In this document: positions 58,701 to 61,476 of the stretch, one piece after another | Position numbering within the stretch: the stretch's first letter is position 1 | Layout: every line of letters starts with the position of its first letter | From: Escherichia coli | Lineage (GTDB): Bacteria; Pseudomonadota; Gammaproteobacteria; Enterobacterales; Enterobacteriaceae | Direction: 5' to 3' (one strand) | DNA length: 64,000 bases | Assembly: GCF_036507355.1 (NCBI RefSeq) | Contig: NZ_AP027877.1 | Program-made: the position numbers

Positions 58701-61476
58701 CAAGGTGAGATGTGGGCATAATTTGAGCGCCATCCCTGTCGGCATAGCGCTGCGTACGCCAAATTTACGCGCGGGATAATTGGCGGTGCTGATCACCCCC
58801 CGACGTTCGCGGCTGCCGCCAATAGCAATAGGGATATCGCGCAGGGCGGGATTGTCGCGCATCTCCACTGCGGCGAAAAAGCAGTCCATATCCACATGAA
58901 TGATTTTACGCATTACTCACCTCTCAACACTGGTAAAGTATACAGTGATTTCAGGGTTTGAGAAATGCGTAAAGATTCAGCATTTAGCGCGTTCGCTGCG
59001 AAAGCACCTGCTGCTTATCCAGCTTTTGCACCAGCGGCTGCACCACTTTATCCCCATGCTGACCAAAGTATTGATACAGCGTATCGGACGCACTTTTGGT
59101 CAGCACCATAATCTCAATACGCCGATTGCCCGCGCTTTGCGGATTTTTGGCATCCAGCAGCATCTGGTCCGCCATTGCGCTTACCTGCATCACTTTATCT
59201 TCCGGCATTCCGGCCTCTTCCAGCACCCGACGAGCTGAAAGCGCGCGATCGCCCGAAAGGTTCCAGTTGTTGTAGATATTGTTTTTGTAGGCCATCGCAT
59301 CGGTATGCCCGGTAATAATAATTTTGTTATCGAGCGAGTCGAACACTGGCGCGAGCTCCACCAGCAAAGTTTTAAAGAACGGCATAATCTGCGCGCTGCC
59401 GCGTTCGAACATATTGCGATTCTGGTCGTCTTTAATCAGCACGCGTAATCCCTGCGGGACAATCTCCATCTCCAGATTCGCTTCCATATGCGCATCACGG
59501 GCAATGGTGTTGATACTGGTTGCCAACTCGCCAAGCTCGGTGGCGGATTTCTTCTTCAGCAGCGCCGTTTTCTCATTCACATCACGCGCTTTTTTCTCCG
59601 TCTCTTCCGGCACCGCCACGGTGGCAGGTTTTGGCGGATGAGACGGGCTGATTTTATTTAACGGCGACAGCCCACCACCGTTAAAAATCGACTGCCCGTG
59701 CAGCGCGGCGATAATGCTTTCACGCTCGGATTTACTGACGCTGTTGACAATCAACTTTATCGTCGTCACCAAAGGGGCCGAGCGTATTTCCGAGGTTTCT
59801 GCCCGCTTTACCCTGGACGCGATGCCCGGCAAGCAGATGGCGATTGACGCCGATCTTAACGCCGGGTTGATCAACCAGGCACAGGCGCAAACCCGGCGTA
59901 AAGATGTTGCCAGCGAGGCCGATTTCTACGGCGCGATGGACGGGGCATCGAAGTTTGTGCGCGGGGATGCCATCGCCGGGATGATGATTCTGGCGATCAA
60001 CCTAATCGGCGGCGTCTGTATCGGCATCTTTAAATACAACCTGAGCGCCGACGCCGCCTTCCAGCAATATGTGCTGATGACCATCGGCGATGGGCTGGTG
60101 GCGCAGATCCCTTCCCTACTGCTCTCCACCGCGGCGGCGATTATCGTCACCCGCGTCAGCGACAACGGCGATATCGCCCATGACGTGCGCCACCAACTGC
60201 TGGCAAGCCCGACGGTGCTCTACACCGCCACTGGGATCATGTTTGTGCTGGCGGTGGTGCCAGGAATGCCGCACCTGCCGTTTTTGCTGTTCAGCGCCCT
60301 GCTTGGCTTTACCGGCTGGCGGATGAGCAAACGCCCGCAGGCGGCGGAGGCGGAGGAGAAAAGCCTCGAAACGCTAACCCGCACCATCACCGAAACCAGC
60401 GAGCAACAGGTCAGTTGGGAAACCATTCCGCTGATCGAGCCCATCAGTTTAAGCCTCGGCTTCAAGCTGGTGGCGCTGGTCGATAAAGCGCAGGGTAACC
60501 CGCTCACCCAGAGGATTCGCGGCGTGCGGCAGGTGATTTCCGACGGCAACGGCGTGCTGCTGCCGGAGATCCGCATTCGGGAAAACTTCCGTCTCAAGCC
60601 GAGCCAGTACGCCATTTTCATCAACGGCATTAAGGCTGATGAAGCGGATATTCCGGCGGATAAACTGATGGCCCTGCCCTCCAGCGAAACCTACGGCGAG
60701 ATTGACGGCGTGCTGGGGAACGACCCGGCGTACGGGATGCCAGTGACCTGGATCCAGGCGGCGCAGAAAGCGAAGGCGCTGAATATGGGGTATCAGGTGA
60801 TCGACAGCGCCAGCGTGATTGCCACCCATGTGAACAAGATTGTCCGCAGCTATATTCCTGATTTGTTTAACTATGATGACATCACGCAGTTGCATAACCG
60901 TTTGTCGTCGATGGCACCGCGCCTGGCGGAGGATTTAAGCGCGGCGCTCAATTACAGCCAATTGCTGAAAGTGTACCGGGCGCTGCTGACCGAAGGCGTT
61001 TCCCTGCGCGATATCGTCACCATCGCCACCGTGCTGGTCGCAAGTAGCACGGTGACCAAAGATCATATTCTGCTGGCAGCTGATGTGCGCCTGGCACTGC
61101 GGCGCAGCATTACCCATCCGTTCGTTCGCAAGCAGGAGCTGACGGTGTATACGCTGAATAATGAGCTGGAAAATCTGCTGACCAACGTGGTGAATCAGGC
61201 GCAACAGGGCGGGAAAGTGATGCTCGACAGCGTGCCGGTCGACCCGAATATGCTCAACCAGTTCCAGAACACGATGCCGCAGGTAAAAGAGCAGATGAAA
61301 GCGGCGGGGAAAGACCCGGTGCTGCTGGTGCCGCCGCAGCTTCGCCCTTTGCTGGCGCGCTATGCGAGATTGTTTGCGCCGGGGCTGCATGTGCTGTCGT
61401 ATAACGAAGTGCCGGATGAGCTGGAGTTGAAGATAATGGGGGCGCTGATGTAGGTATCCGGCATCGGTGCACAACC

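What the first reader, a model, noticed from the sequence alone, without database searches (positions are those of the whole stretch)
58984..61453. Flag-2 lateral-flagella deletion scar
A MotB-like lafU remnant (minus strand) and an FlhA-like lfhA remnant (plus strand) meet near 59.73 kb, and their artifactual ORF extensions overlap by about 160 bp. Everything that should lie between them in an intact Flag-2 locus is missing.
Basis: partly seen in the sequence, partly recalled or inferred. Interest (0 to 1): 0.33.

Follow-up and report, generated by a model that had tools for sequence, protein, structure and literature searches.

The report
Flag-2 lateral flagella deletion scar
This is the well-known leftover of a second flagellar gene cluster in E. 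coli: two beheaded genes joined where about 35-39 kb was lost. The same cut, to the nucleotide, appears to have happened again and again in separate strains and genera.

Summary
Window 58984-61453 is the canonical E. coli Flag-2 scar (K-12 pseudogenes lafU/b0230 and lfhA/b0229), lying between dinB and rayT.

- **Remnants.** The lafU remnant (58984-59752, minus strand) lacks its first 52 of 307 codons. The lfhA remnant (59750-61453, plus strand) lacks its first 130 of 697 codons.
- **Junction.** The two meet in a 3-bp overlap, ATC (59750-59752), inside a 15-bp imperfect direct repeat (11/15 matches). Intact loci carry 35.0-38.8 kb between these points.
- **ORF overlap.** The 161-bp overlap of the two ORFs is antisense read-through, not real coding sequence.
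- **Frequency.** 4071 of 5426 complete E. coli genomes have this scar.

The scar itself is already known. Beyond it, I found that scars simulated from four diverged intact alleles match real scars at 99.9-100% identity, with near-identical flanks. One such pair is ST131 SE15 against EC958. The same junction also occurs in Citrobacter, Kluyvera and Atlantibacter, on arms typical of each genus. Arm dN/dS is about 0.03 in scarred and intact strains alike.

So the deletion is recurrent and nucleotide-precise, not one ancestral event. The repeat is not the best homology available. The lafU breakpoint sits at a hairpin tip. No recombinase was found. Why this site recurs is unresolved.

The parts
58984..59752 (-). 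lafU' remnant: the last 255 codons (residues 53-307) plus the stop codon of the MotB-like lateral-flagellar stator gene. The N-terminal cytoplasmic segment and the transmembrane helix are deleted.
   Evidence: 98.8-99.0% identical to intact lafU of L001. Pfam OmpA domain is present. tblastn shows LafU residues 53-307 only in scars.
59750..59752 (.). The crossover point. ATC is the only stretch that matches both the lafU side and the lfhA side of intact loci exactly.
   Evidence: Three-way alignment. Identical in 9 of 9 E. coli scars and 5 of 5 intact loci.
59741..59755 (.). The single hybrid copy of the 15-bp imperfect direct repeat left by the deletion (CTGTTGACA from the lafU side, ATC shared, AAC from the lfhA side).
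   Evidence: 11/15 matches places the pair in the top 0.023% of all lafU x lfhA position pairs, but about 425 pairs are as good or better.
59750..61453 (+). lfhA' remnant: codons 131-697 plus the stop codon of the FlhA-like export-gate gene. The segment coding for the first four transmembrane helices is deleted.
   Evidence: 95.6-95.8% identical to intact lfhA of L001. Pfam FHIPEP matches profile positions 99-656 only.
59714..59749 (+). Artefactual 5' extension of the lfhA ORF: an ATG plus 11 codons read from the antisense strand of lafU.
59753..59874 (-). Artefactual 5' extension of the lafU ORF, read from the antisense strand of lfhA. PGAP uses a GTG at 59769 for its 261-aa 'LafU'.
59736..59744 (.). 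Left half (TGACGCTGT) of the inverted repeat that forms a hairpin at the lafU breakpoint in intact loci. Its partner ACAGCGTCA was deleted.
   Evidence: DNA folding of the intact site gives -12.9 and -14.7 kcal/mol on the two strands, z -3.2 and -3.6.
57858..58913 (-). dinB, the conserved left neighbour of the locus.
61676..62173 (-). rayT (yafM), the right neighbour, preceded by a REP cluster at 61456-61672.

Best explanation
This is the canonical Flag-2 deletion scar. A 35-39 kb lateral-flagellar cluster once lay here. It was removed by one precise illegitimate recombination event between a 15-bp imperfect direct repeat in lafU and its partner in lfhA, with the crossover in the shared ATC. 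What remains is two promoterless, 5'-truncated pseudogenes.

The scar is not a single ancestral event inherited by all carriers. The same nucleotide-precise deletion has occurred independently many times: in different E. coli haplotypes, inside the ST131 clone, and in other genera. The site therefore behaves as a deletion hot spot. The window's scar is one more instance, on a rare lfhA allele.

**Shown:** the identity of the scar, the placement of the junction, the truncations, and the matching of scars to intact haplotypes.

**Inferred:** that the events were independent, and that the process does not depend on extended homology.

**Not resolved:** why this pair of sites is used. The hairpin at the lafU breakpoint is the only structural lead.
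For: **Scar identity.** establish the ORFs, truncations, synteny and junction.

**Recurrence within E. coli.**
- Scars built in silico from intact loci L001, L004 and L007, whose lfhA arms differ from one another by 4-6%, each find real scars at 100.0%, 100.0% and 99.9% identity over 2470 nt.
- The flanks agree as well. L016 against L001 has 0 mismatches in 5487 + 3709 nt. L014 against L006 has 0 in 9145 + 2321 nt. L018 against L007 has 7 mismatches and one gap in 11769 nt and 0 in 2307 nt.
- ST131 SE15 (scar) against EC958 (intact) differs by 1 SNP in 11.8 kb that includes both arms.
- Structural variants in the flanks (prfH/rtcB truncation, presence of yafNO, hicAB versus rayT) go together with the matched pairs.
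- Between scars, relatedness switches abruptly at the junction. L010 against L011 has 3 mismatches on the left arm and 76 on the right. K-12 against L011 has 24 on the left and 0 on the right. This is expected if the arms were 35 kb apart until recently.
- Arm dN/dS is about 0.03 for scar-scar and intact-intact pairs alike, with dS about 0.2 and no indels. The divergence therefore accumulated while the genes were functional.

**Recurrence across genera.** Scars in Citrobacter sp. MGH106, Kluyvera ascorbata, Atlantibacter subterranea and E. albertii use the same position (LafU residue 53, LfhA residue 131). Where an intact locus of the same genus was available, the arm matches it. The Atlantibacter scar's lfhA arm is 99.1% identical to an Atlantibacter intact locus and 76-78% identical to other genera. 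The Citrobacter scar's LfhA is 97% identical in protein to C. youngae LfhA, against about 91% for E. coli. No intact Kluyvera locus was available.

**Dominance.** There are 4071 canonical scars, against about 44 genomes with an unbroken lafU site but no complete fliF, and about 36 with neither.
Against: - The 11/15 repeat with a 3-bp exact core is weak. About 425 other lafU x lfhA position pairs are as good or better, including exact 11-mers.
- Ten to 38 other sites to the right of the lafU site, nearly all inside the locus, match the lafU-side 3' end as well as the lfhA site does. Simple microhomology-driven slippage or end-joining therefore does not predict one recurrent junction.
- Slippage across 35 kb is mechanistically awkward.
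- I could not read Ren et al. 2005, so I do not know what they concluded about a single versus repeated origin.
- Only four E. coli haplotype pairs were tested, though all four matched.
Confidence: 0.8

Rival explanations
1. A single ancient deletion. The scar arose once in an ancestor and is inherited. Its presence on many arm alleles reflects later homologous recombination shuffling the arms between scar and intact haplotypes.
For: The junction is identical in all 9 E. coli scars examined and is contiguous in 4071 genomes. The region is clearly mosaic.
Against: - This model needs crossovers within about 67 nt to the left and 11-50 nt to the right of the junction in every one of the four tested haplotypes, so that no donor SNPs are left.
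- Near-clonal pairs differ only by the 38-kb block: ST131 SE15/EC958, and L014/L006 with 8 SNPs in about 31 kb.
- The Citrobacter and Atlantibacter scars carry genus-specific bases within 12 nt of the junction.
- Old pseudogene arms should show relaxed dN/dS and indels. They show 0.03 and none.
Confidence: 0.05
2. Enzyme-mediated, site-specific excision. The two sites act as cryptic recombination or cleavage sites for a conserved host or mobile-element enzyme (for example a tyrosine or HUH recombinase, a hairpin nuclease or a topoisomerase), which cuts Flag-2 out precisely.
For: - Nucleotide-level recurrence across at least four genera, which homology alone does not explain.
- The lafU breakpoint lies in the loop of a 9-11 bp hairpin, and its synonymous sites are unusually conserved (0.79 against 0.61, p=0.006, window chosen post hoc).
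- The lfhA breakpoint abuts a perfect 10-bp palindrome, GATGATCATC.
- rayT, an HUH transposase that acts on hairpins, lies next to lfhA in most E. coli.
Against: - No recombinase domain was found in the unnamed Flag-2 proteins, and all the other genes are flagellar.
- rayT is absent next to lfhA in haplotypes and genera that still made the scar: hicAB in L007/L018, and NlpC/P60 directly adjacent in Citrobacter and Atlantibacter.
- The lfhA site has no significant predicted structure.
- The two sites do not look like a pair of canonical att or dif cores.
- No excised circle or reciprocal product was observable with these data.
Confidence: 0.15
3. Gain, not loss. The 'scar' is the resident state, and intact strains acquired Flag-2 by insertion or recombination. 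This is how ST131 subclade B2 has been described in the literature.
For: Ben Zakour et al., as summarised in PMC5369007, describe a 'Flag-2 locus insertion' that defines ST131 subclades B2-B5 and clade C. Flag-2 is patchy across the species, present in 24% of genomes.
Against: - The scar consists of the 3' parts of two genes that only make sense as truncations.
- Import by homologous recombination would bring donor arm sequence with it, yet the arms of EC958 and SE15 are identical.
- No integrase or att structure was found.
- Divergence among intact loci shows no discontinuity at the two sites.
Confidence: 0.03
4. The remnants are retained because they are functional. On this view, truncated LfhA and LafU are expressed and kept by selection, which would explain the open frames and the low dN/dS.
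For: Both ORFs are open in all 9 E. coli scars compared. dN/dS is about 0.03. The fusion supplies an ATG 12 codons upstream of the lfhA junction, and a weak sigma-70-like match lies at 59688-59715.
Against: - Matched scars are 99.9-100% identical to intact alleles. The low dN/dS is therefore inherited from the pre-deletion genes and was not earned afterwards.
- Decay does occur. L018 has a GAG-to-TAG change in lafU', and the E. albertii lfhA' is frameshifted.
- Both products lack the transmembrane segments they need.
- Their partner proteins are gone.
Confidence: 0.04

Closest known systems
E. coli K-12 lfhA (b0229, formerly fhiA) and lafU (b0230, formerly mbhA) pseudogene pair: the Flag-2 deletion scar of Ren et al. 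2005 (J Bacteriol 187:1430)
   Same: Same two remnants, same orientation, same neighbours (dinB and rayT), and the same junction sequence GCTGTTGACA|ATC|AACTTTAT.
   Different: The window's lfhA arm is a different allele, 95.3% identical to K-12 and at most 97.6% identical over the whole scar to any of 5426 genomes. The window also lacks yafN-yafO next to dinB.
Intact Flag-2 lateral flagellar loci (E. coli 042, EC958, W; Citrobacter, Yersinia and others; surveyed in PMC6993521)
   Same: The arms are orthologous to the outermost genes lafU and lfhA of these loci, in the same chromosomal position.
   Different: Everything between LafU codon 52 and LfhA codon 131 is absent: about 40 genes, 35.0-38.8 kb.
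Spontaneous deletions between short imperfect direct repeats, sometimes helped by palindromes. The classical lacI hot spots of Albertini et al. 1982 and Glickman & Ripley 1984 are recalled from my own knowledge and were not checked here.
   Same: One hybrid repeat copy is left behind. The repeats are imperfect (11/15). One endpoint sits at a hairpin. The same endpoints recur.
   Different: The repeats are 35-39 kb apart rather than under 1 kb. They are not the best homology available. The same junction recurs across genera.
ETT2 eivJICAEGF deletion between small direct repeats in E. coli (mentioned in PMC5422975, citing Ren et al.)
   Same: Another secretion-system island in E. coli that is frequently removed between short direct repeats.
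   Different: A different locus. Not examined here.

Membership tests
Flag-2 lfhA-lafU deletion scar (K-12 b0229/b0230 type) | A 3' fragment of lafU orthologous to intact lafU | tested here: met
   769 nt, 98.8-99.0% identical to L001 lafU.
Flag-2 lfhA-lafU deletion scar (K-12 b0229/b0230 type) | A 3' fragment of lfhA orthologous to intact lfhA, divergent from lafU' | tested here: met
   1704 nt, 95.6-95.8% identical to L001 lfhA, on the opposite strand.
Flag-2 lfhA-lafU deletion scar (K-12 b0229/b0230 type) | The same junction nucleotides as K-12 | tested here: met
   The window and K-12 (L008) both read GCTGTTGACA ATC AACTTTAT.
Flag-2 lfhA-lafU deletion scar (K-12 b0229/b0230 type) | Chromosomal position between dinB and rayT/yafL | tested here: met
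Flag-2 lfhA-lafU deletion scar (K-12 b0229/b0230 type) | Absence of the interior Flag-2 genes | tested here: met
   The 35-kb interior of L007 hits only REP elements in the window.
Functional Flag-2 lateral flagellar system | A complement of about 39 conserved flagellar genes (lfhAB ... lafTU) | tested here: not met
   Only two truncated terminal genes remain.
MotB-type stator protein (LafU) | An N-terminal transmembrane helix plus a C-terminal OmpA-like peptidoglycan-binding domain | tested here: not met
   The OmpA domain is present, but residues 1-52, which include the transmembrane segment AFADFTLAMMALFMTLW, are deleted.
FlhA / FHIPEP export-gate protein (LfhA) | A complete FHIPEP domain, including the N-terminal transmembrane helices | tested here: not met
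   Only Pfam profile positions 99-656 of 657 are matched; 130 N-terminal codons are missing.
Deletion by short-homology illegitimate recombination | Direct repeats at both endpoints in the parent, with one hybrid copy in the product | tested here: met
   15-bp repeat with 11/15 matches and a 3-bp exact core. The pair ranks in the top 0.023% of position pairs.
Deletion by short-homology illegitimate recombination | The recurrent endpoints are explained by being the best available homology | tested here: not met
   About 425 equal or better pairs within lafU x lfhA, including exact 11-mers. Ten to 38 equal or better anchored partners lie to the right of the lafU site.
Site-specific recombinase excision (integrase/att type) | A recombinase encoded in or next to the element | tested here: not met
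   No recombinase Pfam domain in the unnamed Flag-2 proteins, and the other genes are flagellar. rayT is adjacent in some backgrounds only.
Site-specific recombinase excision (integrase/att type) | A reciprocal product (excised circle) and dependence on the enzyme | not testable with these tools
   Needs PCR and genetics.

The most novel reading that the evidence does not exclude
The lafU and lfhA breakpoints are a conserved pair of sites at which Flag-2 is excised precisely and repeatedly by a dedicated mechanism, structure-directed or enzyme-directed. On this reading, loss of the lateral flagellar system is a high-rate, quasi-programmed, irreversible switch shared by Escherichia, Citrobacter, Kluyvera and Atlantibacter. 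It would not be an accident of microhomology. A corollary is that Flag-2 presence or absence is homoplasic, and that the published 'insertions' (ST131 B2) are really repeated losses.
Probability: 0.25. Interest if true: 0.7.

Novelty: already known. Interest (0 to 1): 0.38.

Why it matters
The scar itself is textbook K-12 annotation and changes nothing. The extra result could matter in three ways if it holds.

1. **Unreliable marker.** Flag-2 presence or absence is used as a clade marker and as a 'gained island' in E. coli population genomics, for example the ST131 subclades. If the scar reforms independently at the same nucleotides, the trait is homoplasic, and the direction of change has been misread in at least one case: SE15 against EC958 differ by 1 SNP in 11.8 kb of flanks.

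2. **An open mechanistic question.** A 35-39 kb deletion recurs at one 3-bp crossover across genera and is not explained by the best available homology. This is a clean natural test case for how deletion hot spots are specified, and it can be tested directly with junction PCR in Flag-2-positive strains.

3. **Pseudogene puzzle resolved.** It explains why a 'pseudogene' pair in E. coli shows intact frames and a dN/dS of 0.03. Most scars are young copies of recently functional genes.

Tried and rejected
- **Chi-directed RecBCD resection setting the endpoints.** The Chi sites I saw by eye in the sequence (CCACCAGC near 59358; GCTGGTGG near 60094 and 60465) face the wrong way for a break inside Flag-2. 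This was visual inspection only, not a formal scan.
- **An 8-bp inverted repeat across the scar** (ACGCTCGG ... CCGAGCGT, fifth fold). It is not conserved in Citrobacter, Kluyvera or Atlantibacter, so I treat it as chance.
- **A 7-bp inverted repeat (ATAAACA) just inside both endpoints**, on the model of Tn10 precise excision. It is too short for a 35-kb loop and is not conserved in other genera.
- **Anchored microhomology.** The lfhA site is not the best partner for the lafU-side 3' end.
- **Site-specific insertion of Flag-2.** Divergence among five intact loci shows no discontinuity at the sites. The test is weak, with only 10 pairs.
- **A recombinase hidden among the unnamed Flag-2 genes.** None was found by Pfam.
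- **Reading Ren et al. 2005.** The paper is not held under its PubMed id or its PMC id.
- **Within-host deletion in an ST131 chronic-infection preprint.** Nothing relevant was reported there.
- **The window's own closest intact counterpart.** No close relative of its lfhA arm exists in the collection (best whole-scar identity 97.6%). The age of this particular scar therefore could not be estimated.
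Full report
**Observation.** The ORF list shows a 296-aa ORF at 58984..59874 on the minus strand and a 579-aa ORF at 59714..61453 on the plus strand, overlapping by 161 bp. 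The first has a Pfam OmpA domain at aa 155-248. The second matches Pfam FHIPEP, but only from profile position 99 to 656 of 657. The gene order around them is gpt-pepD-prfH'-rtcB'-yafP-dinB | lafU' lfhA' | REP-rayT-yafL-dinJ-yafQ. This is the E. coli K-12 region near 250 kb. K-12 annotates the same pair as pseudogenes lfhA (b0229) and lafU (b0230), abutting at 250070/250072.

**Placing the junction.** An intact Flag-2 locus in the same chromosomal position (strain TUM18530, L001) has lafU (307 codons) next to dinB and flhA/lfhA (697 codons) next to rayT, with about 40 flagellar genes between them.
- Window 58900-59755 aligns to the lafU end at 98.8%, and 59741-61589 aligns to the lfhA end at 95.6%.
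- Base by base, the lafU side is perfect through 59752 and the lfhA side is perfect from 59750. The crossover therefore lies in the shared ATC at 59750-59752.
- Around the ATC the two parental sites form a 15-bp imperfect direct repeat: CTGTTGACAATCCAC against CTGATGATCATCAAC, 11/15 matches.
- lafU has lost 155 nt (52 codons, including its transmembrane helix). lfhA has lost 390 nt (130 codons).
- Relative to five intact E. coli loci, the missing block is 35,011 to 38,808 bp.
- None of the interior is elsewhere in the window.

**What is already known.** De Maayer et al. 2020 (PMC6993521) summarise Ren et al. 2005. [quoted passage not shown] The same kind of remnant is seen in 531 of 4028 Enterobacterales genomes, including Citrobacter. 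Leimbach et al. 2017 (PMC5422975) note that Flag-2 is 'present or entirely absent', with no intermediate forms. The scar is therefore a known object. I could not read Ren et al. 2005 itself.

**Census.** Among 5426 complete E. coli genomes:
- 4071 carry the contiguous scar.
- 1319 have an uninterrupted lafU site.
- 1275 carry the interior gene fliF.

The canonical scar thus accounts for about 98% of all states in which Flag-2 has been lost.

**Evidence that the scar is recurrent.** All nine E. coli scars I compared have the identical junction, and all five intact loci have the same two parental sites. Yet the arms are very polymorphic: the lfhA arm is 93.5-96.8% identical between most strains and aligns without gaps. 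Scar alleles do not cluster apart from intact alleles.

I built in-silico scars from intact loci L001, L004 and L007 and searched for them.
- Each found real scars at 100.0%, 100.0% and 99.9% identity over the full 2470 nt.
- The matched pairs also share their flanks.

| Scar vs intact | Left flank | Right flank |
|---|---|---|
| L016 vs L001 | 0 mismatches in 5487 nt | 0 in 3709 nt |
| L014 vs L006 | 0 in 9145 nt | 0 in 2321 nt |
| L018 vs L007 | 7 mismatches + 1 gap in 11769 nt | 0 in 2307 nt |
| L017 vs L004 | 65 in 10769 nt (arms identical) | 1 in 1995 nt |

- The matched pairs share flanking structural variants: truncated versus full prfH/rtcB, presence of yafNO, and hicAB versus rayT.
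- L006 is essentially EC958 (ST131 clade C), and L014 is essentially SE15 (ST131 clade A). SE15 and EC958 differ by 1 SNP in 11.8 kb of flanks that include both arms.

If the scar, or the island, had been imported by homologous recombination, donor polymorphisms should lie next to the junction. None are seen in four of four haplotypes.

Two further observations point the same way.
- Between scars, relatedness switches abruptly at the junction. This is expected if the two arms were 35 kb apart until each deletion occurred.
- dN/dS of the arms is about 0.03 for scar-scar and intact-intact pairs alike, with dS about 0.2 and no indels. The divergence therefore accumulated in functional genes. Occasional decay is seen: a nonsense codon in L018 lafU', and a frameshift in E. 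albertii lfhA'.

**Across genera.** A search of one genome per species with the LafU remnant returned 19 Enterobacterales loci, 15 intact and 4 scars. The scars were E. coli, E. albertii, Citrobacter sp. MGH106 and Kluyvera ascorbata. Atlantibacter subterranea adds a fifth taxon.
- Every scar starts at LafU residue 53 and LfhA residue 131 and reads ...GACGCTGTTNAC(A/G)|AT(C/T)|AACTTYAT....
- The arms are genus-typical where this could be tested. The Citrobacter scar has Citrobacter-specific bases 9 and 12 nt from the core. The Atlantibacter scar's lfhA arm is 99.1% identical to an Atlantibacter intact locus but 76-78% identical to other genera. No intact Kluyvera locus was available for comparison.

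The same junction has therefore arisen independently in at least four genera.

**Mechanism.** A junction landing on an 11/15 repeat is not random. Only 0.023% of lafU x lfhA position pairs are as good. But about 425 pairs are as good or better, including exact 11-mers. Ten to 38 other sites to the right of the lafU site, nearly all inside the locus, match the lafU-side 3' end at least as well as the lfhA site does. Homology alone does not explain one recurrent junction.

The leads I found are these.
- In intact loci the lafU breakpoint lies at the tip of a strong hairpin, TGACGCTGT-TGACAATCC-ACAGCGTCA. It folds at -12.9 and -14.7 kcal/mol on the two strands, with z scores of -3.2 and -3.6.
- Synonymous sites within that hairpin are more conserved across 16 taxa than neighbouring ones: 0.79 against 0.61, p=0.006. 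The window was chosen post hoc.
- The lfhA breakpoint abuts a 10-bp palindrome but has no significant predicted structure.
- No recombinase is encoded among the unnamed Flag-2 proteins.
- The neighbouring HUH transposase rayT is absent from some backgrounds that still produced the scar.
- Divergence among intact loci shows no break at the sites, so nothing supports site-specific insertion.

I therefore favour a RecA-independent illegitimate recombination hot spot, in which the hairpin and the imperfect repeat both contribute. I keep enzyme-mediated site-specific excision as a live minority hypothesis. Why these two sites pair remains unexplained.

**Verdict.** The finding is real, correctly interpreted and already known, so on its own it is of low interest. 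The nucleotide-precise recurrence within clones and across genera is the noteworthy part. It can be tested directly, and it bears on how Flag-2 presence or absence is used in E. coli population genomics. I cannot say whether that part is new, because the primary paper was not available to me.

Noticed in passing
window 57409-58913: dinB (57858-58913, minus strand) overlaps yafP (57409-57861, minus strand) by 4 nt. The yafN-yafO toxin-antitoxin pair that K-12 and strain A30 carry between them is absent here, as it is in L001, L003 and ST131.
   Followed up: partly
window 56368-57103: Truncated prfH' and rtcB' (ykfJ-like) remnants, as in K-12. Other E. coli haplotypes (L004-L007, ST131) carry full-length rtcB-prfH.
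   Followed up: no
window 61456-61672, 62269-62353 and 4869-5239: Clusters of REP/BIME elements. Two of them flank rayT (61676-62173). Similar REPs occur inside intact Flag-2 loci.
   Followed up: no
window 59750-61453: The lfhA arm in this window is a rare allele. The whole scar is at most 97.6% identical to any of 5426 complete E. coli genomes, although pepD 4 kb away is 100% identical to strain A30. Against A30, the lafU arm has 2 mismatches and the lfhA arm has 77.
   Followed up: partly
lfhA and lafU arms in E. coli generally (L001-L018): Synonymous divergence between E. coli alleles is about 0.2 with dN/dS about 0.03. From my own knowledge this is much higher diversity than is usual for E. 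coli chromosomal genes. The cause (old alleles, imports from other species) was not examined.
   Followed up: no
L045 (SE15) vs L046 (EC958): The ST131 clade A scar and the clade C intact Flag-2 share flanks and arms, with 1 SNP in 11.8 kb. The published 'Flag-2 insertion' in ST131 subclade B2 (as summarised in PMC5369007) is more simply explained by precise deletions in clade A and subclade B1.
   Followed up: partly
L001:5455-5525 (intact lafU codons ~46-58): A strong DNA/RNA hairpin lies in the coding sequence at the breakpoint, with elevated synonymous-site conservation across 16 taxa. It might be an mRNA element of lafU in its own right.
   Followed up: partly
L042/L043 (Atlantibacter subterranea): The same scar sits in a different left-hand context (short-chain dehydrogenase and IclR genes instead of dinB), while the NlpC/P60 (yafL-like) gene is kept on the right.
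   Followed up: no
window 63308-63849: The dinJ-yafQ toxin-antitoxin pair is present and intact.
   Followed up: no
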